This document shows positions 646 to 58,458 of a DNA stretch of 64,000 nt, piece after piece (the stretch's first letter is position 1; each line of letters opens with the position of its first letter). Both the position numbers and the translations under genes were made by a program. The DNA is from Candidatus Saccharimonadota bacterium (GTDB taxonomy: Bacteria > Patescibacteriota > Saccharimonadia > Saccharimonadales > Saccharimonadaceae): positions 3,927 to 67,926 of the forward strand of contig JAFRKK010000003.1 in assembly GCA_017431745.1 (NCBI GenBank). Reading direction: 5' to 3'. The notes beneath the pieces are model-generated. The model did no database searches and was not told the origin of the DNA. It saw nothing but the letters and a program-made list of their open reading frames with translations.

Positions 646-721
646 CTGGGTGTGGCGCAGTTGGTAGCGCGCGACTTTTGGGAAGTCGAGGCCGCTGGTT
701 CAAGTCCAGTCACCCAGACCA
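646..721 (+). tRNA. tRNA-Pro(TGG)
   Basis: Acceptor stem CTGGGTG/CACCCAG, anticodon arm CGACT-TT TGG GA-AGTCG, T-loop GTTCAAG, encoded CCA. Confidence 0.97.
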
Positions 722-744
722 AAACCTTGGCAGTTATGTATTGT

Positions 745-820
745 CAGGGTGTGGCGCAGTTGGTAGCGCGCAGCGTTCGGGACGCTGAGGTCGCTGGTTC
801 AAGTCCAGTCACCCTGACCA
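745..820 (+). tRNA. tRNA-Pro(CGG)
   Basis: Acceptor CAGGGTG/CACCCTG, anticodon arm CAGCG-TT CGG GA-CGCTG, encoded CCA. Confidence 0.97.
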
Positions 821-824
821 TTTT

Positions 825-901
825 CTGGGATTGGCGCAGCCTGGTAGCGCGCACGCATGGGGTGCGTGAGGTCGCAAGTTCAAATCTTGTATCCCAGACC
901 A
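825..901 (+). tRNA. tRNA-Pro(GGG)
   Basis: Acceptor CTGGGAT/ATCCCAG, anticodon arm CACGC-AT GGG GT-GCGTG, encoded CCA. Confidence 0.95.
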
Positions 902-982
902 CGGACCAAAAATGAGCCGATTGGCTTGTTTTTTTATTTTAGATTTTATGATAAAATAGAAGAAGTAAAGGAGAAATTTTTA

Positions 983-2908
983 GTGGCGGAAAAAATGATG
1001 AATAAAACGACCGGAAGGTCAAATAATAATGATAAGTCGAATATGGTACGGAGTGCGTTGTTTACGTTTGTATTGATTTGTTTTGGGGTGTTTTTGATAA
1101 TGAACATGAATTATGGTGGACCGCAGAAAACAGAGGTGCCGATCTCAGAAGTGATTAAAAGGGCGAATGATCCAAATGGAGATATTGCAAAATTGACGGT
1201 GACTGGTAATACAGTAGATATTACTCTGAAGGGGAAGGATCAACCAACGGAAACTTCCAGGAAGGACGGAAGCGGGACTTTGTATGACCAAGGGTTGGTG
1301 AACCATTGTGAGGATTTAGAGGGTGATGAATTAAAGGCTTGCGAAGAAAAGTATCCAGCGATTGAATATAAGGAAGATAATAATGTGTGGGGGATTGTGC
1401 TGGACGTGGCACTTACGATTTTGCCGATTATTGCTATTGTAATTTTCTTTTCTTGGATGATGCGGCAAGCGACGGCGGCGAATAGTCAGTCGATGGCATT
1501 TGGGAAAGCGAAGGCTAAATTATATGGGCCAGACAAGAAAAAAGTAACATTTAAAGATGTAGCAGGAAACGAATCGGCGAAGCAGGATTTGACGGAGATT
1601 GTGGATTTTTTGAAAAATCCAAAGAAATACGAGAAACTGGGAGCGAAAATTCCGCGTGGGGTGTTACTCGCGGGTGATCCTGGGACTGGTAAGACTTTGA
1701 TGGCGCGGGCAGTAGCTGGCGAAGCTGATGTGCCGTTCTTTTCGATTTCCGGTTCGGAATTTGCAGAGATGTTTGTGGGTGTGGGGGCTTCTAGAGTGCG
1801 TGATTTGTTTTCTAAAGCAAAGAAAAATGCACCATCAATTATCTTTATCGATGAAATTGATGCGGTGGCGCATAAACGTGACGCTAGGGGTGGTGCCGGG
1901 CGTGAGGACGAGCAAACTTTAAATCAGATTTTGGTAGAAATGGATGGGTTTGATAATGATTCGGGGGTGATTGTGATGGCGGCGACAAACCGTGTAGATA
2001 TGCTAGACAAGGCGCTACTGCGTCCGGGGCGGTTTGATCGGCATGTGAATGTAACCTTGCCAGAGAGAAAGGATAGGTTAGAGATTTTGAAGGTACACTT
2101 TAAAGGAAAACCGGTATCGGAAGATGTGGATTTAGAGTCTCTTGCGAAGAAAACAGCGGGGTCTTCTGGTGCGGACCTTGCGAACATAGCGAACGAATCG
2201 GCAATTACAGCAGCGCGTGAAGGGCACAAGTCGATTACAAATGCTGATCTCACTGAAGCGTTTGAAAGAGTGGCAATTGGGCCGGAGCGGAAGTCTAAGG
2301 TGATGAACGACAAAGAACGGAAGATAACGGCTTACCATGAAGCGGGGCACGCGATTGTGGGGCATGTGCTACCGGATTCGGACCCGGTACACAAAGTTAC
2401 GATTATCCCACGAGGTTCTACTGGAGGGGTAACCTGGTTTTTGCCACCGGAGGACAGGAGCTATAAGAGCATTTATGAGCTGAAGGATATTTTGGCGCGA
2501 GCGATGGGGGGTCGGATAGCGGAGAAGTTGATTTTTGGGACAGACGCAATAACGACAGGGGCTTCTTCGGACTTGCGTAACGTAGCGGAGCTTGCGAAAT
2601 CGATGATTGTAGAAGAAGGGATGGGTGATGGTACGCGAAACTTAGTGTTCCCTTCGGAGGCTACTGGTTATTATACGATTACTACCGGCAAGCCGTATTC
2701 GGAAAAAACAGCGGAACAGATTGATGCGGAAATCAAGAAACTGTCAGATGAGGCGTCGGTAAGAGCGGAGAATGTGTTGAAAGCCAATAAAACAGTATTA
2801 GATAAATTAGCTGAGGAGCTACTAGCACACGAGACATTGGAAGAAGCGGAACTTGAGCCGATTTTGAAAGGGGCGAAATTGCCGGAAACTGCAAAACTAC
2901 ATAAATAA
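983..2908 (+). CDS. ftsH: ATP-dependent zinc metalloprotease FtsH
   Basis: Two N-terminal TM segments, Walker A GDPGTGKT, Walker [27 protein letters not shown] zinc motif. True start is probably GTG 983 (AAGGAG upstream) or ATG 995, not 857, which lies inside a tRNA. Confidence 0.97.
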
Positions 2909-2924
2909 AAACAAGGAGGTATCA

Positions 2925-5399
2925 GTGGAGAGATTTTTGGAGTATTTTATACCGGAAAGGTACGTATTAGATATTGAGGTAGATAAGGGGCGAAAGACGA
3001 TTGGGGGAGTAGTGAAGGTTTATGGGGTATCTAAAGCTGAAAATATTAAGTTCCACGCGGTAGGCTTATCTGTTAAGGAAGTGTTAATTGATGGTAAAAA
3101 GTGGGATTTTAAATGTGAAAATGGCGTTTTGACGCTATTTAAGGTGCCTAGGAGCGATTTGAATATCGAAATAGGGTATGAGGGCACTTTGAATGAGAAT
3201 ATGCAGGGGGCATACTTATCGACTTATGAATATAATGGAAAAACGGAAATAATAGTAGCGACGCAGTTTGAGTCGCATTATGCTAGGGAGGCGTTTCCGT
3301 GTATTGATGAGCCCGCGGCAAAAGCGGTGTTTGAACTGACAATCACAGCTTCGGCAGAAGATATAGTGTTGTCTAATATGCCAGAAATGAAATTTAGTTC
3401 GGCGCCGCGTCGCTCGCGCCCGTCGCCACGGGGCGAGCGCGCTAATTCTCGCGCTGCCGCGCTCCGAAATGCGCCGAACCAAATTTCAGTTTCTGGCCGT
3501 AAAACCACTATATTTGAGCCGACGCCGAGAATGTCGACATATTTGCTGGCGTGGGTGATTGGTAAGTTTCATGGGAAAACTGTGAAGAATGAGCATGGGG
3601 TGGAGATTACGACTTACACGGCGTTGAACCAAGAAATTGATTCGGTGGATTTTGCAAATGAGGTAGCAGCACGGAGTTTGGAGTTCTATGATGATAATTT
3701 TGGGATAGATTATCCATTGAAAAAACTAGACCAAGTGGCTTTGCCAGATTTTGACGCGGGGGCAATGGAAAACTGGGGACTAGTGACTTATCGAGAATCA
3801 ATGTTACTTGCGTCGAAAGATGCGACTTTGGGGGCGCGAAAATCAGTGGCGTTAACTGTGGCGCATGAGCTTTCGCACCAGTGGTTTGGGGACCTTGTAA
3901 CGATGAAGTGGTGGGATGATTTGTGGTTAAATGAATCGTTTGCGTCGGTGATGGAATACTATGCAGTGGATGCGATTTATCCAGATTTTAAAATTTGGGA
4001 AAGCTTCTTTACGGGAGATTGTACGGCGGCTTTGAATCGGGATGCGTATCAAGGTGTGCAATCGGTGCATCAAGAGGTTCATGACCCGGAGGAAATCGTG
4101 ACCTTGTTTGATGGGGCGATTGTGTACGCCAAAGGCGCGAGATTAATGCTGATGTTGATTCGGTTGATGGGTTGGGAAGAGTTTTGCAAGGGGATACATG
4201 AGTATTTTGAAAAATATAAATATGAAAATACGGTGGGGGATAATTTGTGGGCTTGTCTTAAACCTTATGCAAAATTTGACCCGGGTGAGTTGATGCATGC
4301 ATTTATCGACCAACCCGGTTATCCAATAGTGACAAATGTGGGAGTGGATTTTGATAAGTTTACACAGAAGCGGTTTTTGTTGGACGGCGAAATGCCAGAA
4401 TCGGATTGGCCTTTGCCGGAAATCCGGGAAGATATGAGTGGGCATTATGTGCTGAATTTGAGTGACGAGGAGTTTGATGAAAGATTGAAAAGATTTGATG
4501 AGTTGGGGCTAGAAGAAAAGCTGAGGCTTTTGATTGATAGAGATTTGATTACGCGAGCGGGGGTGGTGAGCCCGGCGTCGTTGGTACCGCTGGTGATGAA
4601 GTTTAAAAACGAATCTGTGGCAGCGGTGTGGAATAAGTTAGCATCGCTAGTCGGTAATTTGAAGGTGTATTTTGATGATGAGTCGGAGGAAGAAAAGAGA
4701 TTAAAGAATTACGTTTATGAGTTGGTAGATGAGAGGTTGAAGGAAGTTGGGATGGAGACGAGAGAGGGTGACGATGAGAATACGATTCGTTTAAGAGCGA
4801 ACTTAATGGCGCTAGATTATTTTGCGGAGGATAAGGAGAGATTTGAGGAGCTGGCGGTAAAATATGAGGACGATTACAGTAAGATGGACGCTGAGGTAAG
4901 GGATTCGATTATTAGTGCTAAGGTGTATTTAGAGCCGGAGTTTGTAGATGAGTGTTTGAAAAAATACCAGGAAGTGAGCGATCCGGATGTGAAGTTTGAT
5001 TATTTGGCGGCGGCGTGTTTGGTGCGAGATGAAAAAGAGCTAGATAAATTGATTGCGCTTCTTGGTGAAAATGAGATAGTAAAGCCGCAGGACCAATTGT
5101 ATTTGTTTGTATATTTATATCGGAACCCGAAATGTAGAAAAAAGGCGTTTGAATGGCTAGTAAATAATTGGGAGACGGTGAAGAGGATAAATGGTGATAA
5201 GGCACTCGATAGCTACCCAACGATAATCGCGAAGCTTGCGAGAACGAAAGAAGAGTATGAGGATTATGTAGAATTCTTTAAGCCGATGGAAAACGATTCG
5301 TTAATGGCGCGAGCGGTGAAAATTGGGATGAACGAAATTAAAGCAAGACTAGAATTGATTGAAAAGAATAAAGAAGAAGTGCTTAAAGCGATTTCTTGA
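2925..5399 (+). CDS. pepN: M1 family aminopeptidase (PepN), with an in-frame palindromic insertion
   Basis: ATQFE...AREAFPCIDEP, GAMENWGL, HELSH-x18-E (NESFA), ERAP1-like C-terminal helical domain. RBS AAGGAGG. Confidence 0.95.
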   Translation: MERFLEYFIPERYVLDIEVDKGRKTIGGVVKVYGVSKAENIKFHAVGLSVKEVLIDGKKWDFKCENGVLTLFKVPRSDLNIEIGYEGTLNENMQGAYLSTYEYNGKTEIIVATQFESHYAREAFPCIDEPAAKAVFELTITASAEDIVLSNMPEMKFSSAPRRSRPSPRGERANSRAAALRNAPNQISVSGRKTTIFEPTPRMSTYLLAWVIGKFHGKTVKNEHGVEITTYTALNQEIDSVDFANEVAARSLEFYDDNFGIDYPLKKLDQVALPDFDAGAMENWGLVTYRESMLLASKDATLGARKSVALTVAHELSHQWFGDLVTMKWWDDLWLNESFASVMEYYAVDAIYPDFKIWESFFTGDCTAALNRDAYQGVQSVHQEVHDPEEIVTLFDGAIVYAKGARLMLMLIRLMGWEEFCKGIHEYFEKYKYENTVGDNLWACLKPYAKFDPGELMHAFIDQPGYPIVTNVGVDFDKFTQKRFLLDGEMPESDWPLPEIREDMSGHYVLNLSDEEFDERLKRFDELGLEEKLRLLIDRDLITRAGVVSPASLVPLVMKFKNESVAAVWNKLASLVGNLKVYFDDESEEEKRLKNYVYELVDERLKEVGMETREGDDENTIRLRANLMALDYFAEDKERFEELAVKYEDDYSKMDAEVRDSIISAKVYLEPEFVDECLKKYQEVSDPDVKFDYLAAACLVRDEKELDKLIALLGENEIVKPQDQLYLFVYLYRNPKCRKKAFEWLVNNWETVKRINGDKALDSYPTIIAKLARTKEEYEDYVEFFKPMENDSLMARAVKIGMNEIKARLELIEKNKEEVLKAIS
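3388..3488. repeat. Palindromic mini-element inserted in frame in pepN
   Basis: 18-bp arms TGAAATTTAGTTCGGCGC / GCGCCGAACCAAATTTCA (1 mismatch). The GC-rich core resembles the elements at 21333 (opposite strand) and 35908. Confidence 0.9.
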
Positions 5400-11276: not shown

Positions 11277-13070
11277 ATGTTTAGGAAGAAAAATCGAAGT
11301 AAGAAACGAACACGCGCGATGCTTTCGGCGTATTCGATTATTATGATTTTGATTATAATACTTGGCATTTTGTCGCATGTTTTGCCTAAAGCGCAGTATG
11401 TGGCAGCTCCAGTAGAAGCGGAAGAAGCTTCAATTGAAGTTGGCCCTGGTGAATGGGAAGGTGAAATGCCAGAAGGTGGGCCAGCGGAGCTGAATGGCGA
11501 AGTGCCACCTAGGCCAGAGGATGGTGAGCGGATGGTCTTGCCAGAAGGTGAATCGGTTCAACCGACAGTAGGCGATGAAGTAACGAGTGAAGGTTTGACA
11601 GAAGACTATAATGCAGAAATTACCGGTACGATTACGGCTGGCGACGAAGTCTCAACGGAAGCTTTGGACGAGGAATTAGCTACTGAAGAAGAGGCTTTTG
11701 ACTCGATGGAAGCTTGCGAGGAAGTTTATGGCGAAGAAGGATGCGTAATCAAGGATGGTTCTGGTGTCGAAGGTGCGGAGCTTTATCAGGTTTTGATGGC
11801 GCCGATTTTAGGATTCCAGGATGCAATTGATGTATGTATCTTTGTGATGATTCTTGGTGGATTCCTTGCGGTAATGGCGAAAACCAAAGCGTTGGAAACT
11901 GGAATTAAGATTCTAGTAAAGAAGATGCACGGAAAAGAGTATTTGTTGATTGCAGTGTTGATGCTGATTTTCTCAATCATGGGTACGACGTATGGGTTCC
12001 TTGAGGAATCTGTTGGATTCTATGTGTTGATCGCGGCAACAATGTTTGCAGCAGGACTTGACCCATTGGTGGGCGTAGCAACTATTTTGCTTGGTGCAGG
12101 TGCTGGTGTGCTGGGTTCGACGATTAACCCATTTGCTACCGGTGTGGCCGTATCAGCAATGAAAGATGCTGGAATTGATTTTAATCAAGGAACGATTATT
12201 TTAATCGCGACAGTGCTATGGCTCACAACGCTTGCGGTTTCAATGTTCTTTGTGATTCGCTATGCGAAAAAGGTACAACGAGATAAAGGCTCAACATTTT
12301 TGTCGTTGCGTGAACAAGCGGCGGCCGAGAAGAGATATTCTAAGTTCTTGCAGGCTAAGGATGACGTACTAAAATTAACGGGCCGTCAGATTGCCTCGTT
12401 GATTGTGTTTGCGTTGACGTTTGTAGTAATGATTATCGGGTTTATCCCTTGGGGTGATTTCGGTATTACATTCTTTGACGATTGGACAGGATGGTTAACC
12501 GGTGCATCACTCGGGAACTGGTGGTTCTATGAAGCGGCCTTATGGTTCTTGATTGCCTCGATTATTATTTCGATTATTAATCGACAAGGTGAGCATGGGT
12601 TTATCGATACATTTATTGATGGTGCAGACGATATGATTGGCGTAGTTCTCGTGATTGCAGTAGCGCGTGGTGCGTCAGTATTGATGGCGGAAACAGCAAT
12701 GGATAATTATATCGTGGTGAATGCGGCGGCAGGGCTTGCATCGCTTCCTGAAATGGCGTTTGTGCCTCTGAACTATTTATTGCATGTAGTGCTCTCAGTG
12801 TTAGTCCCATCATCTTCAGGATTAGCAACGCTTTCGACACCGATCATTACGCCGGTGGCAGCACAGCTAGGATACAGCACCAATGTGGCGGCAATGACAA
12901 TTGTGGCAGCCAATGGCTTAGTCAACTTGATTACGCCGACTTGTGGCGCAATTATGGCTGGCTTGGCGCTTGCAAAAGTTGATTATTCAACTTGGTTTAA
13001 GTGGGGGATTAGAGTGGTAGCATGTATTGCAATAGTTAATATTATCGTACTTTGTCTGTTTTCTCTTTAG
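11277..13070 (+). CDS. arcD: ArcD/YfcC-type arginine:ornithine antiporter with a long acidic insertion
   Basis: Many TM segments, GSTINPFATG, VPSSSGLATLSTPI, LITPTCGAIMAGL...W.KW (YfcC/DcuC family). Last gene of the arc cluster. Confidence 0.85.
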   Translation: MFRKKNRSKKRTRAMLSAYSIIMILIIILGILSHVLPKAQYVAAPVEAEEASIEVGPGEWEGEMPEGGPAELNGEVPPRPEDGERMVLPEGESVQPTVGDEVTSEGLTEDYNAEITGTITAGDEVSTEALDEELATEEEAFDSMEACEEVYGEEGCVIKDGSGVEGAELYQVLMAPILGFQDAIDVCIFVMILGGFLAVMAKTKALETGIKILVKKMHGKEYLLIAVLMLIFSIMGTTYGFLEESVGFYVLIAATMFAAGLDPLVGVATILLGAGAGVLGSTINPFATGVAVSAMKDAGIDFNQGTIILIATVLWLTTLAVSMFFVIRYAKKVQRDKGSTFLSLREQAAAEKRYSKFLQAKDDVLKLTGRQIASLIVFALTFVVMIIGFIPWGDFGITFFDDWTGWLTGASLGNWWFYEAALWFLIASIIISIINRQGEHGFIDTFIDGADDMIGVVLVIAVARGASVLMAETAMDNYIVVNAAAGLASLPEMAFVPLNYLLHVVLSVLVPSSSGLATLSTPIITPVAAQLGYSTNVAAMTIVAANGLVNLITPTCGAIMAGLALAKVDYSTWFKWGIRVVACIAIVNIIVLCLFSL

Positions 13071-13259
13071 AATAATATAATAGTTATTTCTAAAGCTTGG
13101 ACTTGTTTGCTTGTAATTATTACAACATAAGTCAAGAAAAAATCTCCTTATTCGCCCTTCGGGCTGGGGGAGATTTTTTCATTGTTAAGTTGTAATAATT
13201 ACGCAAACAAATCTGGTCTAAATCTCATTATGCTTTAGAAATAACTATTATATTATTCT
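13069..13259. repeat. 191-bp imperfect palindrome between arcD and gpmI (includes a terminator-like core)
   Basis: Perfect 28-bp outer arms at 13069-13096 and 13232-13259, inner arms TAATTATTACAAC/GTTGTAATAATTA and GAAAAAATCTCC/GGAGATTTTTTC. Confidence 0.92.
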
Positions 13260-13276
13260 TATGTTATAATAGCAGT

Positions 13277-20638: not shown

Positions 20639-21820
20639 ATGTATTTAGCAGTTTTGGGGCGACAAAGTGAGATATCAGTAGCGGAACTTGAGACGCTGTT
20701 TGATGATGTGAAAAAAAAGAATGATTTTTTGGCGAGTTTTGATAGTGATAGTGCGCCAAATATTGATAAACTGGGTGGAAGCTTGAAATTGGCGGAAAAG
20801 CTAGATATGAAACCGTTAGAGTATTTAACAGAACTACCAGAAGGGAAAATAACGGTTGGAGTATCAGACTATTCCAAAAAGGCTTCGCGAAAAACTGCTT
20901 CAATGGAGGCACTAAAACTTAAAAAGATTTTAGTGCGATATGGACGTAGTGTGCGGGTGGTGGAGAATAAAGAAGCAGTTTTATCTACGGCGACATCACT
21001 TCATAATGGCCTGTCGGGGAAAAATGAGCGAAAAGTAGAGCTTATTAAGGTTGATAATGATTGGTATAAAGTAATCGGCGTGCAAGATATCGATGCTTAC
21101 GCTAAACGTGACCAAGCGAGGCCGGCAAGAGATGCTAAAGTTGGAATGCTACCACCGAAGTTGGCTCAAATCTTAATTAATTTATGTGGTCCGCTTAAAC
21201 CTGTTTCAACTATACTAGATCCGTTTTGTGGAACTGGTGTGGTGCTACAAGAGGCTCTTCTGATGGGCTACCATGCCTATGGGACTGATTTAAATGAAAA
21301 AATGATAGAATATTCTGACAAGAATTTACGGTGGCTAAGCGAGAAAGACTTTTTTCTGGGACATTTCGGAGGTTACGACCGAGAATTAGGGCGCTCCGCC
21401 CGTGACGACGGGCCGGAGCGACCCGTGTCCCAGAAAAAATGTACTTTCTCGCTTAGCCAGGGAGATGCTACTAGTTTTCAATGGAAACAGCCCATAGACG
21501 CGGTAGCGTGTGAAGGGTATCTGGGGAAGCCGATGTCGAAGATTCCGACCGAAATGACGTTAAAAGAACAAAAACAAGAGTGTAGTGCAATTGTACTAGG
21601 TTTTCTGAAGAATTTGGCGGGGCAGATTAAGAATGACACTCCAGTAGTGATAGCCGTACCGGCCTGGCTACGGGAGGATGGAACATATTCCCGCTTGAAT
21701 ATCCTTGACGAAATCGATAAACTGGGGTATAATGTTAATAATAAATCGCGCGAGGGGCTTATTTATTGTCGTGAAAAGCAAATCGTAGCGAGAGATATAT
21801 TAATTTTAAGGAAAAAGTAA
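20639..21820 (+). CDS. SAM-dependent RNA methyltransferase, Trm11/TrmM-like (THUMP-associated), with an in-frame palindromic insertion
   Basis: RDQARPARDAKVGMLPPKLAQILIN, ILDPFCGTGVVLQEA, GTDL, GDAT, EGYLG. Confidence 0.8.
   Translation: MYLAVLGRQSEISVAELETLFDDVKKKNDFLASFDSDSAPNIDKLGGSLKLAEKLDMKPLEYLTELPEGKITVGVSDYSKKASRKTASMEALKLKKILVRYGRSVRVVENKEAVLSTATSLHNGLSGKNERKVELIKVDNDWYKVIGVQDIDAYAKRDQARPARDAKVGMLPPKLAQILINLCGPLKPVSTILDPFCGTGVVLQEALLMGYHAYGTDLNEKMIEYSDKNLRWLSEKDFFLGHFGGYDRELGRSARDDGPERPVSQKKCTFSLSQGDATSFQWKQPIDAVACEGYLGKPMSKIPTEMTLKEQKQECSAIVLGFLKNLAGQIKNDTPVVIAVPAWLREDGTYSRLNILDEIDKLGYNVNNKSREGLIYCREKQIVARDILILRKK
21333..21458. repeat. Palindromic mini-element inserted in frame in the methyltransferase gene
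   Basis: Perfect 15-bp arms GGCTAAGCGAGAAAG/CTTTCTCGCTTAGCC, plus TTTTTCTGGGACA/TGTCCCAGAAAAA. The reverse complement of the core closely matches the intergenic element at 35931-35996. Confidence 0.93.
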
Positions 21821-34413: not shown

Positions 34414-34490
34414 TGGTGGGCGATAGAGGATTTGAACCTCTGACCTTTTCTACGTCAAAGAAACGCTCTAGCCAACTGAGCTAACCGCCC
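34414..34490 (-). tRNA. tRNA-Val(GAC)
   Basis: Reverse complement GGGCGGT...ATCGCCCACCA, anticodon arm TTTCT-TT GAC GT-AGAAA. Confidence 0.96.
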
Positions 34491-34509
34491 ATTTGTAGGT
34501 CTACTGTTA

Positions 34510-34586
34510 TGGTGAGCCGGGAGAGGCTCGAACTCTCGACACCGGGCTTAAAAGGCCCGTGCTCTAACCAACTGAGCTACCGGCCC
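34510..34586 (-). tRNA. tRNA-Lys(TTT)
   Basis: Reverse complement GGGCCGG...CCGGCTCACCA, anticodon arm CGGGC-CT TTT AA-GCCCG. Confidence 0.96.
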
Positions 34587-34595
34587 ACATTGCTG

Positions 34596-34671
34596 TGGTG
34601 GCGCCGACTGGACTTGAACCAGTGACACAAGGCTCTTCAGGCCTCTGCTCTACCAACTGAGCTACAGCGCC
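34596..34671 (-). tRNA. tRNA-Phe(GAA)
   Basis: Reverse complement GGCGCTG...CGGCGCCACCA, anticodon arm GAGGC-CT GAA GA-GCCTT. Confidence 0.96.
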
Positions 34672-34737: not shown

Positions 34738-35922
34738 ATGAATAGAGTGCCATTAGCGGAGAGAATGAGACCGACGAAGCTATCTGAGGTGGTGGGACAG
34801 GATGAAATTATTGGTGAAGGAAAAATTTTGACGGAGATTGTGCGGAAAGGTGAACCGGTAAACTTGATTTTTTGGGGGCCACCGGGGACAGGTAAGACGA
34901 CGCTGGCTCGGATTTTGGCGCGAGAATTTGAAGCAGATTTTGTGGAGATATCGGCGGTGACGGCGGGGAAAAAGAATGTTGAAGAAGTAGTAGAACGAGC
35001 AAAATTAAACTGGAATCTGAAAACACGGACGATTTTGTTTGTGGATGAAATCCATCGGTTTAATAAGGCGCAGCAGGATGCATTTTTGCCACACGTTGAA
35101 TCGGGATTGATTACTTTGATTGGGGCTACAACAGAGAACCCTTCGTTTGAAGTGATTTCGCCGCTGCTTAGCCGTTCACGGGTCGTAGTGGTGTCAGCGC
35201 TATCGAAGGATGCGATTATTGAGGTATTGAAGCGGGCGATTAAAGCAGAAAAAGCTTCGAAGCGAGTATCTAAGAAAGCAATTGATTTGTTAGCGGAGCT
35301 GTCGGGTGGTGATGCGAGGGCGGCATTAGGGGATTTGGAATTAGCTTTGTCACTAGCTAGTAAGGTGGATGAAAAAGTAGTAGAAGAGGCGGCGGGAAAG
35401 AAAATGCCAGGGTACGATAAGAAAGGCGACAACCATTATGACACGATCTCAGCATTTATCAAATCGATGCGTGGTTCGGATGTGGATGCGGCACTTTATT
35501 ATCTTGCTCGGATGGTAGAAGCAGGTGAAGACCCGAAGTTTATCGCACGGAGAATGGTAATTTTTGCTTCAGAAGATATTGGGCTAGCTGGGAATGGAGC
35601 GCTTAGCCTTGCGACGGCGTGTTTTCAAGCGGTGGAAAGAGTGGGGATGCCGGAATCGGGGTTAATGTTGGCGCATTGTGCGGTGGCTCTCGCGCTATCG
35701 AAAAAGTCGCGGCAAACAACGGATGCGTGGTATAAAGCACTTGAAGTGGCGCGTAAATCGCGAGGTGAGCCGGTGCCGACGTGGCTTCGGAACGCGCCGA
35801 CCAAATTAATGAAAGATTTGGGATATGGAAAAGGTCAAAAATGGGAGGCGGGGTTCCATCTCGACAAAAGTTACTTGCCAGAGAGTATTAAGGACGTTGA
35901 AATATGGAAGACAACTAAATAA
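34738..35922 (+). CDS. rarA: Replication-associated recombination protein A (RarA/MgsA)
   Basis: PLAERMRP, WGPPGTGKTTLA, FVDEIHRFNKAQQD, ATTENPSFEV, YDKKGDNHYDTISAFIKS.RGSD. Confidence 0.97.
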   Translation: MNRVPLAERMRPTKLSEVVGQDEIIGEGKILTEIVRKGEPVNLIFWGPPGTGKTTLARILAREFEADFVEISAVTAGKKNVEEVVERAKLNWNLKTRTILFVDEIHRFNKAQQDAFLPHVESGLITLIGATTENPSFEVISPLLSRSRVVVVSALSKDAIIEVLKRAIKAEKASKRVSKKAIDLLAELSGGDARAALGDLELALSLASKVDEKVVEEAAGKKMPGYDKKGDNHYDTISAFIKSMRGSDVDAALYYLARMVEAGEDPKFIARRMVIFASEDIGLAGNGALSLATACFQAVERVGMPESGLMLAHCAVALALSKKSRQTTDAWYKALEVARKSRGEPVPTWLRNAPTKLMKDLGYGKGQKWEAGFHLDKSYLPESIKDVEIWKTTK

Positions 35923-36026
35923 AGCCGTTCGGGACACGGGTCGGCTCGGCCCGTCGTTACGGGCGAGCCGCCCTCTTTCTCGGTCGTAACCTCCGAACGG
36001 TCCCTCAGGCTTTATTTAGTTGTCTT
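35908..36026. repeat. Palindromic mini-element between convergent rarA and the DsbA-like gene
   Basis: Perfect 19-bp arms AAGACAACTAAATAAAGCC/GGCTTTATTTAGTTGTCTT. Core TTCGGGACAC...CGGTCCCTCAGG is shared with other copies. Confidence 0.93.
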
Positions 36027-44002: not shown

Positions 44003-45274
44003 ATGAAACATTCAGTCGAGGAAATCACACTAAAGAATGGGGCGAAGGGGCTGTTTATTGATATTCCGGGAGCTTCTGTGATGTCGACTCGAATTCAATT
44101 TAGAGCGGGGATGCTTTATGCGAAAAATAAATATGTGTATGAGATTCCACACGTGGTGGAACATTTAGCTTTTGGGGCAAATGCAAAATATCGGGATGAA
44201 CAGGCTTTTGAGGCAGAATTTACTAAAAATGGGGCATATCACAATGCGTGGACTTCGGATATATCGGTGTGTTATGAGACGGAATGTGCGGATTTTGAGT
44301 GGGAAAGAATTATGGAGCTTCAGCAGGTGTCGATTTGCGAGCCGAGATTTAATGAGGAAGAATTAAAGTCAGAGAAGGCTAATGTAAAATCTGAACTTAC
44401 CGGCTACATGAATGATTATTATCGGTTGCTTTGGCCGCGAGTACAGCAGGCGGTGGGTGAAGAGGTGCTTGATTTATCGCAAAGGCGAGAAACGATAGCG
44501 AATATTGACCTAAAGGATATTCGAGAGCATTATCGGAGAACTCATACTGCGAAAAATATGCGGTTCATTATTGCTGGGCGTTTGAAGGGGCGAAAGCACA
44601 AATTGGTGAAAATGTTGGAAGCGTGGAATTTGAAAGAAGGAAAGGAATTTGACATTCCTTTGGTTGAATTGCACTCTTCAGAGGCAGTGTCAATTCGTCG
44701 AAAGGATGCGTCGAATATTACGTTTGGATTTTCGCTAGTGACGCCACGACACTTGGAGCCTTCGGAGGTGTTTGCGATGAATTGTTTGAACCATATTTTG
44801 AACGGAACGACTAATTCGAAGATTTTTGGGGCGGCCAGGAAGCGGGGGTTGGTGTATGGGATGGGCTCCTCAATTGCTTCAAATGCGCACAATTCGTATT
44901 GGGATTTTGACGGGGAAGTAAATATTGAAAATGCAGAGGAGTTGTTTGAGCTTATTCAAACGGAATTAATGAAGACGCTAAATAGCGAGATACTGGATAT
45001 GGATTTTTTGGCGGCAAAATCTTATGCGATGGGTAGATTCCAGATGGGGGCGCAAACGGTGGGACAAATCGCGGATTATTATGCTGACGGATTCTTTACT
45101 AATGGGACGATTGAAAAATATGATAATATGCCAAACCTCATTAAATCGATTGATAAGTTTAAGATGATTGAGTTAGCGCGTGAATTTGCAGGTTCAGGTA
45201 TAAAGGGGTTTGCGGCGGTGTCATCTGTTGAGAAAGCGTTTATTTCTGAATTAGAGAATAGATTGAACTTCTAA
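44003..45274 (+). CDS. M16 family zinc peptidase
   Basis: Inverted zincin motif HVVEH, NAWTS, EELKSEKANVKSE, RKRGLVY. Confidence 0.88.
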   Translation: MKHSVEEITLKNGAKGLFIDIPGASVMSTRIQFRAGMLYAKNKYVYEIPHVVEHLAFGANAKYRDEQAFEAEFTKNGAYHNAWTSDISVCYETECADFEWERIMELQQVSICEPRFNEEELKSEKANVKSELTGYMNDYYRLLWPRVQQAVGEEVLDLSQRRETIANIDLKDIREHYRRTHTAKNMRFIIAGRLKGRKHKLVKMLEAWNLKEGKEFDIPLVELHSSEAVSIRRKDASNITFGFSLVTPRHLEPSEVFAMNCLNHILNGTTNSKIFGAARKRGLVYGMGSSIASNAHNSYWDFDGEVNIENAEELFELIQTELMKTLNSEILDMDFLAAKSYAMGRFQMGAQTVGQIADYYADGFFTNGTIEKYDNMPNLIKSIDKFKMIELAREFAGSGIKGFAAVSSVEKAFISELENRLNF

Positions 45275-45433
45275 TAAATAAATTATAAGTTGATTCACTC
45301 ACGTCAAGTAATTCTTGATGATTTTTTAAACGGAAATTTTCGCGTCTTGCCTACGTCGCGCTGCAAAAATTTCCTAAAGACCACCAAGAATTACTTGGTT
45401 CGTTCAAGACTTACAATTTATTTATTAGAAGTT
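45266..45433. repeat. 168-bp imperfect palindrome spanning both stop codons of the convergent M16 peptidase and murD genes
   Basis: Perfect 19-bp arms at 45266-45284 and 45415-45433; inner arms CAAGTAATTCTTG/CAAGAATTACTTG and GGAAATTTT/AAAATTTCC. Confidence 0.92.
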
Positions 45434-46634
45434 TAAATTGATTCCCTCGGTCGTAGACGTTTTCGAACATGTCGAAAGAGGCGGCGGCGGGGGACATGAC
45501 TATGATAGACGGGGACATGCTTTCGGCTTCGGATTTGGCGGTGCTGATTGCTTCATTGAGCGATTCAGCTAGGATGAATCTGTCGTCTTGATATTTTTTG
45601 GTTAGTTCGTGGCCGGATTCGCCGATGAGGACGATTTTTTTGACTTGGGGAGCCTGCAGAATCTCGTAGATTTCAGGGAGATCTTCGTAATTGGTTTTGT
45701 CGCGACCACCGAGGATAACTACTAGGTTGTCATTTGGGAAGGCGTTGATTGCAACGCGAGTTGAGGATGGATTGGTTGAGAAATTGTCGTCGTAATATTT
45801 AACGCCGTTGATTTCACGGAGGTATTCGAGGCGATGGGGGAGACCTTTGAAGTTTTTGAGACCTTCTATGATGGTGGCTTGATGGTCCTTCAAATATTCA
45901 TCTGGTGATATATTTAAGAGACAGGAAACTGCGGAAATAGCGGCGATAGCGTTGTTTTCATTGTGAACGCCAGGTAGAGTGATAGCGTTTTTTACCTCTG
46001 TTGGGATGGTGAATGGATAGGGGATTTTCTGGGCTTTTGAGGTGTCTGCGATTTTGGTGGTTTCGGGGTTTTCCTTGAAGTAAATGAGGTAATCATCTGG
46101 GGTTTGGTATTTGGTGATATTGGCCTTGGCATTTAGGTAATCAGCGTAGTCTTTATGAATGTTGAGATGATCGGGCTCTAATTGTCCGAGAATGGCGATA
46201 TGAGGAGATTTGGTGACGTCCCAGAGTTGAAAACTAGATAATTCATAGACTACAACAGAGGTAGGTTTGAGCTCATCTAGGATATCAATAGCAGGGTTGC
46301 CGATGTTGCCGACAAGATAGGAATCTTGGCCTTCGGCATCAAGAAGAGCTTTGATAAACGAGCAAGTGGTGCCTTTGCCTTTGGTGGCGGTGACGCCAAT
46401 AATTGGGCAAGGACAGTGGTCAAAAAAGTATTTAGTGAGGCTGGATTCGTTTTTTAGCCCCAGGGGTGGGACGCTGGGGCTTCGCAAAATTATATCATAG
46501 GATGAATAATCCTTGTTTATTATTTCGTTGTAGGTGAAATCTTCAAAAACATCGATTTCAGCGTTAAATTTGTCCTTGAAATATTTTTCGGCAGATTTGC
46601 CTTCTTTGCCGTAACCGAGCAATGCTATTCTCAT
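45411..46634 (-). CDS. murD: UDP-N-acetylmuramoyl-L-alanine--D-glutamate ligase
   Basis: LLGYGKEG, GVTATKGKGTT, GNIG, ELSSFQL, DHLNIH, GLPHRLE, DDNFSTN, SPAAASFDMF...RG. Confidence 0.96.
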   Translation of the reverse strand: MRIALLGYGKEGKSAEKYFKDKFNAEIDVFEDFTYNEIINKDYSSYDIILRSPSVPPLGLKNESSLTKYFFDHCPCPIIGVTATKGKGTTCSFIKALLDAEGQDSYLVGNIGNPAIDILDELKPTSVVVYELSSFQLWDVTKSPHIAILGQLEPDHLNIHKDYADYLNAKANITKYQTPDDYLIYFKENPETTKIADTSKAQKIPYPFTIPTEVKNAITLPGVHNENNAIAAISAVSCLLNISPDEYLKDHQATIIEGLKNFKGLPHRLEYLREINGVKYYDDNFSTNPSSTRVAINAFPNDNLVVILGGRDKTNYEDLPEIYEILQAPQVKKIVLIGESGHELTKKYQDDRFILAESLNEAISTAKSEAESMSPSIIVMSPAAASFDMFENVYDRGNQFKLLINKL

Positions 46635-57878: not shown

Positions 57879-58280
57879 ATGTCATTACAATCTACAGATC
57901 AAATCGCTGATTTACTCACTCGTATTCGTAATGCGGTGATGGTTGGCAAAAATGAAATTCTCGTCCCGACTTCTAAATTGAAGGCTGGGGTGGTAGAAGT
58001 ACTTGCGAAAAATGGCTATGTGGCTTCATTTGAAGTTATTGATGGCTCGCCTCGTGGGATGCTTAAAGTTGTGATTAACGAACCAGGGACGGTCGCCAAA
58101 ATTAACGAGATTTCAAAAGTTTCAAAGCCAGGGCGAAGGGTGTATTCGTCGGCTGACGAGTTGCCAGTAGTGAAGTCTGGACGAGGGATGGTAATTGTAT
58201 CTACTTCTAAAGGTTTGATGACTGGACGTGAGGCGAAGAAGAATCGCCTTGGTGGTGAAGTCTTGGTTAAGGTTTGGTAA
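57879..58280 (+). CDS. rpsH: 30S ribosomal protein S8
   Basis: DQIADLLTRIRNA, SKPGRRVY, STSKGLMT...LGGEV. Confidence 0.98.
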   Translation: MSLQSTDQIADLLTRIRNAVMVGKNEILVPTSKLKAGVVEVLAKNGYVASFEVIDGSPRGMLKVVINEPGTVAKINEISKVSKPGRRVYSSADELPVVKSGRGMVIVSTSKGLMTGREAKKNRLGGEVLVKVW

Positions 58281-58458
58281 AAATAGTAAAGTAATTATTT
58301 GCTTTTCTCAGCGTTGAAATACGCGCCAAGATAAAAAATACAACACTCGTCGGATTGTTTCGGAAATTACAGTTTCCTCAACAATCTGGAGAGTTGTATT
58401 TTTTATATGGGCGATTTCAAATGCTTCGAAAAAGCAAATAATTACTTTACTAGATTTT
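58278..58458. repeat. About 180-bp imperfect palindrome directly after rpsH
   Basis: Perfect 23-bp arms at 58284-58306 and 58430-58452; inner arms ATAAAAAATACAAC/GTTGTATTTTTTAT-like; apical TTCGGAAA...TTTCCTCA. Confidence 0.9.

What the first reader, a model, noticed from the sequence alone, without database searches (positions are those of the whole stretch)
3388..3488. Selfish palindrome translated inside aminopeptidase N
A GC-rich hairpin of about 100 bp sits in frame between VLSNMPE and GRKTTIFEPTP. It adds an Arg/Ala/Pro-rich peptide (KFSSAPRRSRPSPRGERANSRAAALRNAPNQISV) where M1 aminopeptidases normally have a short loop. The catalytic motifs are intact downstream. This parallels the Rickettsia palindromic elements that create new protein segments.
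Basis: partly seen in the sequence, partly recalled or inferred. Interest (0 to 1): 0.75.

Follow-up and report, generated by a model that had tools for sequence, protein, structure and literature searches.

The report
Translated palindromic repeat in Saccharibacteria genes
The GC-rich hairpin inside this aminopeptidase gene is one copy of a repeated palindromic DNA element that has spread through gut Saccharibacteria, sitting in frame in many housekeeping genes, much as the Rickettsia palindromic elements do, but with arms copied from the host and the ability to flip.

Summary
Window 3380-3497 is a 118-nt near-perfect hairpin (70-76% GC in a 43% GC genome). It lies in frame in a loop of an intact M1 aminopeptidase.

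It is not a one-off. The window has three copies: in pepN, in a methyltransferase-like gene, and between two convergent genes. A pattern scan found 108 or more loci in at least 52 Saccharibacteria/Nanosyncoccus assemblies.

Each copy has a conserved GC-rich core of about 80 nt, flanked by 15-30 bp arms that are unique to the locus.
- 66 of 115 copies lie inside ORFs, and all 66 are in frame and free of stop codons, in either orientation.
- The other 49 are intergenic, and many sit at or close to the 3' ends of genes.
- No gene is split by a copy.

Orthologues of both host genes show four states at the same loop: empty, forward, exactly flipped, and an arm-only stub.

Stem complementarity is Watson-Crick only, and there is no target-site duplication. 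In at least one locus an arm is an inverted copy of native host coding sequence.

Best reading: a Rickettsia-palindromic-element-like selfish DNA palindrome that is translated as a disordered surface loop. It is a new variant of a known kind. How it spreads is not known.

The parts
2925..5399 (+). Host gene: M1-family aminopeptidase (PepN-like), 824 aa, catalytic motifs intact
   Evidence: ORF. Pfam PF17900/PF01433/PF11838 on homologues. Matches to solved M1 aminopeptidases at E of about 1e-89. GAMEN and HExxH invariant.
3380..3497 (+). Copy A: the whole palindromic element (arms plus core), read in frame as residues about 153-191
   Evidence: Fold and inverted repeats. nhmmer core profile hit at 3390-3485, E = 1e-19.
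3380..3396 (+). Copy A, 5' locus-specific arm (GCCAGAAATGAAATTTA). It overlaps the codons M-P-E-M-K-F and is probably original host sequence
   Evidence: The 'NM P(E)' codons are conserved in orthologues with and without the element. The same GCCAGA lies outside the hairpin in L112.
3397..3479 (+). Copy A, conserved GC-rich core. P1 is 3397-3405 paired with 3471-3479. P2 is the hairpin 3407-3442 with tip CCCGT-CGCC-ACGGG. P3 is the hairpin 3451-3462. The joining strands are TAATTCTC and TCCGAAAT
   Evidence: Structure. 112-copy alignment A2. P2 covariation: 94% of cells paired and 299 double-sided changes against 102 in shuffles.
3481..3497 (+). Copy A, 3' arm (AAATTTCAGTTTCTGGC), the inverted complement of the 5' arm, encoding (Q)ISVSG
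21333..21458 (-). Copy C: a 126-nt element (type-2 core) with the element strand on minus. It is read in frame on the + strand inside the methyltransferase-like gene as ...WLSEKDFFLGHFGGYDRELGRSARDDGPERPVSQKKCTFSLSQ
   Evidence: nhmmer E = 3e-24. Exact flipped allele in L194.
20639..21820 (+). Host gene of copy C: 393-aa methyltransferase-like protein (PF01170 UPF0020 / PF01555 N6_N4_Mtase)
35908..36026 (+). Copy B: a 119-nt element (type-2 core) lying exactly between the stop codons of two convergent genes. Its 5' arm covers the last four codons and the stop of the MgsA/RarA-like gene
   Evidence: nhmmer E = 4e-18. Pfam of the neighbouring genes.

Best explanation
The hairpin is one copy of a repeated, non-coding, palindromic DNA element family found, in the collections searched, almost only in assemblies labelled Saccharibacteria or Candidatus Nanosyncoccus, mostly from animal guts.

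Anatomy (shown): a conserved GC-rich core of about 80 nt folds as a three-way junction. This is a short closing stem P1, a long hairpin P2 whose tip CCCGTCG-YY-ACGGG was fixed by the search pattern, and a small hairpin P3. The core is enclosed by 15-30 bp AT-rich arms that differ at every locus.

Distribution (shown): copies persist only where they are tolerated. That means between genes, often at or near gene 3' ends, or inside genes where the copy keeps the reading frame and carries no stop. In pepN it lies in a loop of the N-terminal beta domain.

Translation (inferred): the genic copies are translated as Arg/Ala/Pro/Ser/Gly-rich, probably disordered, surface peptides.

Level of the palindrome (shown): complementarity is Watson-Crick only, equal on both strands, and wobble pairs are not enriched in the mRNA sense. 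It is therefore a DNA-level palindrome.

Fate after insertion (shown): the whole palindrome can flip, which gives a different in-frame peptide of the same length. It can also lose its core and leave an arm-only stub.

Origin of the arms: in one locus an arm is shown to be an inverted copy of native host coding sequence. I infer that arms arise or grow by fold-back or template-switch synthesis across the hairpin. That process would also explain the flipping and the concerted evolution of the two arms.

The agent and route of spread to new sites are unknown.
For: **A multi-copy family**
- The window has three copies.
- The core profile gives 138 hits in loci L001-L113 and none in 80 RarA loci from other lineages.
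- Metagenome depth is 1700-4200 over the core against about 40 on the flanks.

**In-frame persistence**
- 66 of 115 copies lie in read-through ORFs, in both orientations.
- The other 49 are intergenic. The tandem neighbours checked are distinct genes such as tsf|frr, nrdD|nrdG and dnaK|pta.
- The frames used are mostly those that most copies keep open.
- In L040, MnmA carries three copies and an IscS-like gene carries one.

**A loop insertion in pepN**
- Orthologues have an 11-aa loop where the window has 44 aa.
- The alignment to solved M1 structures breaks at residues 155-196.
- AlphaFold gives mean pLDDT 85.6 overall but below 50 for residues 158-183, between two strands.

**A DNA-level palindrome**
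- P2 has 299 double-sided changes and only about 5 wobble cells out of roughly 2000.
- In the arms, read in mRNA sense, G.U pairs number 10 against 18 A.C mismatches.

**Flipping**
- L194 is the exact reverse complement of copy C at the same site, with the same gene length.
- L111 compared with L113 shows the same for pepN.

**Stubs**
- L109 and L195 keep only the arms.

**Host-derived arms**
- In L111 the arm TTATTTAATTGCTT is the inverted copy of the native codons (E)AIK plus the stop.
- Net insertion is 99 nt at both window genes, while the hairpins are 118 and 126 nt.
- In about 21 intergenic copies the upstream stop codon lies inside an arm.
Against: - No direct evidence of translation. 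RNA runs gave only contigs, and none crosses the junction.
- No transposase, no target-site duplication and no conserved element termini were found. Mobility is therefore inferred from distribution alone.
- L112 is a PepN 93% identical to the window's. At the same site it carries a different core type with unrelated arms, which the simple 'one arm is host' model does not explain.
- Two copies 3.6 kb apart in L002 share arms, so arms can travel with the core.
- Three long AT-rich palindromes in the window lack this core. Arm growth may therefore be a property of the genome and not of the element.
- The pattern used to collect copies fixed the P2 tip and two other motifs, so their invariance is partly circular.
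Confidence: 0.75

Rival explanations
1. The element is an intervening sequence removed or skipped before the protein is made. Possible routes are an intron-like RNA, excision at the long stem by RNase III followed by ligation, or ribosomal bypassing as in T4 gene 60 or the mitochondrial 'byp' elements.
For: The mRNA would carry a very stable hairpin, -70 to -88 kcal/mol with 20-30 bp stems. GC-rich mobile inserts in AT-rich mitochondrial genes are bypassed (my own knowledge). RNA data here neither show nor exclude a spliced form.
Against: All 66 genic copies are in frame and stop-free. Frames that carry a stop in most copies are almost never used. No gene is split. Removal or bypass would lift exactly these constraints. 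No Rfam family matches, with the best E-values at 0.12-1.8 and scores far below gathering thresholds. Wobble pairs are not favoured in the mRNA sense.
Confidence: 0.05
2. The element is mainly a functional cis-acting site that the host maintains. Examples would be a bidirectional terminator or mRNA-stabilising hairpin, or a binding or recombination site for a protein. On this view the genic copies are tolerated by-products.
For: Many intergenic copies sit at or near gene ends, for example exactly between two convergent stop codons. The P2 tip and junction motifs are strongly conserved and the P2 stem covaries. Whole-element inversion resembles a site-specific switch.
Against: More than half of the copies lie inside coding sequence, in both orientations. 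The hairpins are not followed by a T-run of their own. Presence and absence vary among close relatives at the same site. Stubs and empty alleles are evidently viable. Part of the motif conservation was imposed by the search pattern.
Confidence: 0.15
3. The insert is a native, lineage-specific loop of PepN that happens to be GC-rich and self-complementary. Alternatively it is an assembly artefact.
For: This loop is naturally variable. Some lineages carry an unrelated insert of about 33 aa (KKHFKVPDGKYTVFYDEDGKK) at the same place.
Against: The same core occurs in unrelated genes and in intergenic DNA, at more than 130 sites in dozens of independent assemblies. Close relatives have an empty site or a stub. 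The flips keep their arm asymmetries and keep ORFs open.
Confidence: 0.02

Closest known systems
Rickettsia palindromic elements (RPE-1 and related families)
   Same: Both are palindromic repeats of about 100-150 bp in a small, reduced genome of a host-dependent bacterium. In both, a large share of copies is inserted in frame in unrelated housekeeping genes, adds a peptide compatible with the protein fold, and has no recognised transposase (PMC10969869 for RPEs; here).
   Different: - The phylum differs (Saccharibacteria / candidate phyla radiation).
- The core here is GC-rich in an AT-rich genome and folds as a three-way junction.
- The arms here are locus-specific and partly copied from the host flank, whereas RPEs have a family-wide consensus along the whole element.
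- Both orientations and several frames are used here, so there is no single conserved peptide.
- Exact flips and arm-only stubs are seen here.
- Sequence homology to RPEs was not tested.
Bacterial MITEs (Correia, ERIC, RUP, BOX and others)
   Same: Both are small, non-coding, multi-copy and hairpin-forming. MITEs are occasionally intragenic with in-frame fusions.
   Different: No target-site duplication was found. No termini are conserved at the true outer ends. No parent insertion sequence is known. The flanks are inverted repeats, not direct ones.
REP / REPIN elements mobilised by RAYT transposases
   Same: Both are GC-rich, structure-conserving palindromes present in many copies. REPINs form long hairpins.
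   Different: REPs are extragenic and carry a conserved 5' GTAG. Here 57% of copies are intragenic and there is no such motif. Association with a RAYT gene was not examined.
Mitochondrial GC clusters, double-hairpin elements and 'byp' elements of fungi
   Same: All are GC-rich palindromic mobile inserts in AT-rich compact genomes. Some lie in coding regions, and the core here is likewise a double hairpin. This comparison rests on my own knowledge.
   Different: Those are organellar. The byp elements are skipped by the ribosome, whereas here the frame is always kept, which argues for translation.

Membership tests
RPE-like in-frame palindromic repeats (functional class) | Repeated palindromic element of about 100-150 bp present in many copies per genome | tested here: met
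   There are 3 copies in 64 kb and 138 profile hits in 111 loci. Median hairpin length is 118 nt.
RPE-like in-frame palindromic repeats (functional class) | A large fraction of copies lies inside protein-coding genes, keeps the frame and carries no stops | tested here: met
   66 of 115 copies are genic and all 66 read through. No genes are split.
RPE-like in-frame palindromic repeats (functional class) | The insert lies at a position compatible with the fold (surface loop) | tested here: met
   AlphaFold gives pLDDT below 50 for residues 158-183, between two strands of a confident model. The alignment to solved structures breaks there. This is a prediction only.
RPE-like in-frame palindromic repeats (functional class) | The insert is actually transcribed and translated | tested here: inconclusive
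   The RNA runs are held only as contigs, and none spans the junction. No proteomic data were available.
Rickettsia RPE families proper (homology) | Sequence similarity to an RPE consensus | not testable with these tools
   No RPE library or Rickettsia chromosomes are in the collections offered. Homology is unlikely given the difference in composition and host clade.
MITE | Direct target-site duplication flanking the element | tested here: not met
   Matches of k = 3-8 at the hairpin ends are no more frequent than in shifted controls.
MITE | Terminal inverted repeats conserved across copies | tested here: inconclusive
   The outer arms are unique to each locus. Only the 8-9 bp P1 stem at the ends of the core (YTCGGGR / YCCCGAR) is semi-conserved.
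MITE | A parent insertion sequence with matching ends and a transposase | not tested
   No search for an autonomous partner was made. The pattern is absent from viral contigs.
REP / REPIN | Extragenic location and a conserved GTAG head | tested here: not met
   57% of copies are intragenic. No GTAG motif appears in alignment A2.
Structured RNA family, ribozyme or intron | A match to a curated covariance model, and G.U-tolerant covariation on one strand | tested here: not met
   There are no Rfam hits at gathering threshold, and the best E-values are 0.12-1.8. Covariation is almost purely Watson-Crick.

The most novel reading that the evidence does not exclude
The element, or the Saccharibacteria replication and repair system acting on any stable hairpin, works by fold-back or template-switch synthesis and not by cut-and-paste transposition. 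Copying across the hairpin would invert the core, overwrite or add an inverted copy of the adjacent host sequence, and keep the two arms identical. The result would be self-extending, invertible palindromes that give housekeeping proteins two alternative in-frame loop peptides. It would be a transposase-free mode of repeat spread and protein-loop diversification not described for bacterial repeats.
Probability: 0.3. Interest if true: 0.8.

Novelty: new variant of a known kind. Interest (0 to 1): 0.62.

Why it matters
It extends the 'selfish DNA inside protein-coding genes' phenomenon, so far a Rickettsia curiosity, to the candidate phyla radiation. Here it touches essential enzymes: PepN, MnmA (three copies in one gene), an IscS-like protein and a methyltransferase-like protein.

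The family offers many natural replicates in four states (empty, forward, flipped, stub). These can be used to study how proteins tolerate random loop insertions and how DNA palindromes arise, invert and decay in ultra-small genomes.

There is also a practical side. The repeat breaks metagenome assemblies of these organisms, and it inflates and diversifies protein-length variants in databases.

Tried and rejected
- **Rfam.** Gathering and permissive thresholds gave nothing meaningful. The three-way junction with GAAA superficially recalls a hammerhead, but the CUGAUGA strand is absent (by eye).
- **RNA-level removal.** Two metatranscriptome runs and one run of unknown type are held only as contigs, and none spans the element, so this is inconclusive.
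- **Read laying for strain-level empty sites.** Contigs break at the repeat. Only 'opposite strand' joints consistent with flipped alleles were seen.
- **RarA-like orthologues from metagenomes.** These were fetched to test whether the 5' arm of copy B is host sequence. No relative carries the element and the C-termini are too variable to decide.
- **Split-gene hypothesis for non-read-through copies.** Rejected, because the tandem neighbours are distinct genes.
- **Target-site duplication.** Not found.
- **Phage carriage.** The pattern is absent from viral contigs.
- **Literature.** Four full-text searches found no description of such elements in Saccharibacteria or the candidate phyla radiation.
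- **Covariance model.** Not built. An nhmmer profile was sufficient because the family is conserved in sequence.
Full report
**1. Observation**

- Pairing runs from 3380 to 3497 (118 nt). That is 17-nt AT-rich arms around a GC-rich centre.
- RNA minimum free energy is -70.3 kcal/mol, against -44.4 +/- 3.5 for dinucleotide shuffles (z = -7.4). The inverted repeats are listed.
- GC reaches 0.70-0.76 in a window that averages 0.43.
- The hairpin lies in frame in an 824-aa M1 aminopeptidase ORF, 2925..5399. GAMEN, HExxH and the distal Glu of that protein are invariant among homologues.

**2. It is a family**

Only two 80-nt windows in the 64 kb exceed 66% GC. One is this hairpin; the other is 35920-36014. 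The second window, and a third site at 21333-21458 on the opposite strand, share the same core as the pepN insert.
- An nhmmer profile of the core finds exactly these three copies in the window.
- Copy C is in frame inside a 393-aa methyltransferase-like gene (PF01170/PF01555).
- Copy B fills the gap between the stop codons of a convergent MgsA/RarA-like gene and a thioredoxin-fold gene.

- All but one hit are in assemblies labelled Candidatus Saccharibacteria or Candidatus Nanosyncoccus. The exception is a 2.4-kb contig that is probably mis-binned.
- At least 52 assemblies are represented, mostly from ruminant guts, with mouse-gut and termite-derived assemblies as well.
- The pattern is absent from viral contigs.
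- The core is absent from 80 RarA loci of other Saccharibacteria and candidate-phyla-radiation lineages.
- In a gut metagenome that holds this strain, depth over the core is 1700-4200 against about 40 on the flanks, and contigs end at the element.

**3. Anatomy**

Every copy has a conserved core of about 80 nt. Its parts are:
- a closing stem P1 (YTCGGGR paired with YCCCGAR);
- a long hairpin P2 with the tip CCCGTCG-YY-ACGGG;
- a joining strand containing TTCTCG;
- a small hairpin P3, which comes in two forms that define type 1 and type 2;
- the strand CTCCGAA.

Outside P1 each copy has 15-30 bp of AT-rich stem whose sequence is unique to the locus.
- In 98 non-redundant copies the arms have 1427 Watson-Crick pairs, 94 mismatches and 54 gaps.
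- Median total hairpin length is 118 nt, range 72-176.
- Among 122 copies, arms are shared essentially only between orthologous loci. The clear exception is two copies 3.6 kb apart in L002.

P2 covaries strongly: 94% of cells are paired against 78% in shuffles, and there are 299 double-sided changes against 102. Almost none of the changes are G.U intermediates. In genic copies read in the mRNA sense, arm mismatches are 10 G.U against 18 A.C. The complementarity is therefore symmetrical between the two strands. This points to a DNA-level palindrome or templated copying. An RNA structure under selection would tolerate wobble pairs on one strand. No Rfam family matches.

**4. Coding context**

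Of 115 pattern-defined copies, 66 lie in open reading stretches with at least 40 codons on each side, in both orientations.
- The remaining 49 are intergenic. Where same-strand ORFs flank a copy, they are distinct genes: tsf|frr, nrdD|nrdG, map|ftsA, dnaK|pta-like, rplO|next gene, and others. No gene is split or frameshifted.
- The frames used by genic copies are mostly those that most copies of each type keep open.
- One locus, L040, has an IscS-like gene with one copy followed by mnmA with three copies, all in frame.

This is the pattern expected if the copies are translated and only non-disruptive insertions survive. It argues against removal at the RNA level or ribosomal bypass, either of which would lift the frame and stop constraints.

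**5. The pepN site**

The loop between '..SNM P' and 'FEPTPRMSTYLL' takes several forms among 120 homologues:
- a short loop of about 11 aa, for example PLKESNGDMYV;
- the element in forward orientation (SSAPRRSRPSPRGERANSRAAALRNAP);
- the element in reverse orientation (GALRSAAARELAPAARGDGPAGRG);
- a type-2 core read in another frame;
- an unrelated native insert of about 33 aa.

At the DNA level:
- L110 (85% identical protein) is a true empty site with no palindrome.
- L113 has the forward element.
- L111 has the same outer arms with the core reversed.
- L109 retains only a 25-nt arm stub (GCCAGAACTAAGCATTAGCTCTGGC).
- L112, whose PepN is 93% identical to the window's, carries at the same place a type-2 core with unrelated arms.

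Alignment to solved M1 aminopeptidases breaks at residues 155-196. That is 42 aa where puromycin-sensitive aminopeptidase has 16. An AlphaFold model built on 40 homologues has mean pLDDT 85.6 and pTM 0.85. It shows residues 158-183 with pLDDT below 50 and little regular structure, between strands 147-150 and 192-197.

**6. The methyltransferase site**

The same four states occur here.
- True empties such as P0132 have 12 aa between KNL and GDAT, where the window has 45.
- L194 (89% identical protein, the same 393 aa) has the whole 126-nt hairpin as the exact reverse complement of copy C. Identity is 118/127 as reverse complement against 90/152 direct, the core is identical, and the arm asymmetries are swapped as well.
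- L195 keeps only an arm stub, 90 nt shorter.

'Opposite strand' joints in metagenome contigs at both window sites are consistent with flipped alleles in co-occurring strains.

**7. Origin of the arms (partly shown, partly inferred)**

- There is no target-site duplication and no conserved outer terminus.
- In L111 a second copy follows pepN. The gene ends with the native, orthologue-conserved ...EAIK-stop. The 3' arm of the element, TTATTTAATTGCTT, is the exact inverted complement of those codons. That arm is therefore an inverted copy of host sequence.
- In pepN the outer 5' arm covers the conserved Met-Pro-Glu codons. In L112 these same codons lie outside the hairpin.
- At both window genes the net insertion relative to empty alleles is about 33 aa (99 nt), while the hairpins are 118 and 126 nt. 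The difference is about one arm. The 5'-arm residues of copy C (EKDFF) align with FKDYK of the empty alleles.
- In about 21 intergenic copies the stop codon of the adjacent gene lies 1-33 nt inside an arm.
- Between orthologous copies, substitutions in one arm are mirrored in the other. For example, window TGAAATTT and L113 TAAAGCTT each match their own opposite arm.

I infer that arms are generated or extended by fold-back or template-switch synthesis across the hairpin. The same process could flip the element and homogenise its arms.

Three findings count against a simple version of this model:
- L112 has unrelated arms at the same site.
- The two L002 copies share arms.
- Three other long AT-rich palindromes in the window (13056-13272, 45263-45436, 58279-58457) are built around other small hairpins and lack this core. 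Palindrome growth may therefore be a property of these genomes and not of the element.

**8. Comparison and verdict**

The closest known phenomenon is the Rickettsia palindromic elements: repeats of about 150 bp, nearly half of them inserted in frame in metabolic genes (PMC10969869). The present family behaves the same way, in a different and equally reduced, host-dependent lineage. It differs in several respects:
- a GC-rich three-way-junction core;
- locus-specific, partly host-derived arms;
- use of both orientations and several frames;
- exact flips and arm-only stubs.

It fails the MITE test for target-site duplication, and it fails the REP tests for extragenic location and a GTAG head. 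Four full-text searches found no description of such elements in Saccharibacteria.

I rate it a new variant of a known kind. Translation itself remains an inference from ORF integrity, and the mechanism of spread is unknown.

Noticed in passing
window 13056-13272, 45263-45436, 58279-58457: Three further near-perfect hairpins of 170-220 nt (28-33% GC, -62 to -97 kcal/mol) lie in intergenic DNA. Each is built around a small central hairpin; the first looks like an intrinsic terminator. None has the GC-rich core. The arms of the second overlap the 3' ends of two convergent, unrelated 423-aa genes. This suggests that palindromes grow outward from any stable hairpin in this genome.
   Followed up: partly
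L040:1501-4225: An IscS-like cysteine desulfurase gene carries one in-frame copy of the element. The adjacent mnmA gene carries three: N-terminal, middle (reversed and diverged) and C-terminal.
   Followed up: partly
alignment A2 columns 26-27 and 47-48 (P2 stem), e.g. L005, L020, L029: In about 40 of 112 copies the 3' strand of P2 reads GCTCGC instead of GCGAGC. The inner four bases are themselves reverse-complemented, which unpairs that part of the stem. This looks like a small internal flip within the element.
   Followed up: no
L002, two copies about 3.6 kb apart (also L086, L022): Two copies on one contig share the same arms of about 27 nt (GTGAATTCAACTTCCATAGACACTTTC), although the flanks beyond the arms are dissimilar. 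This is the only case found in which arms seem to have moved together with the core.
   Followed up: partly
PepN homologues P0017, P0031, P0043 and others, same loop as window residues 153-196: Some lineages carry an unrelated insert of about 33 aa (for example KKHFKVPDGKYTVFYDEDGKKSASTYIEYH) at the same loop, so the position tolerates insertions of more than one kind. Its DNA was not checked for palindromy.
   Followed up: no
P0002 versus window PepN (residues about 136-200): P0002 is 92% identical to the window protein overall. Around the loop, however, it matches the more distant P0005 type (FELNIKTTDKDDIILTNVSLG-EPTP, no insert). This suggests recombination between pepN alleles.
   Followed up: no
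window 646-898 and 34417-34671: There are two clusters of three tRNA genes each. The listed ORFs 652..915 and the first ~14 codons of the 857..2908 ORF overlap the first cluster, so 652..915 is probably spurious and the true start of 857..2908 probably lies further downstream.
   Followed up: no
L111:2681-2768: A second element copy sits immediately after the pepN stop codon in this relative. Its outer 3' arm is an inverted copy of the last pepN codons plus the stop. The window, L112 and L110 have no element there.
   Followed up: yes
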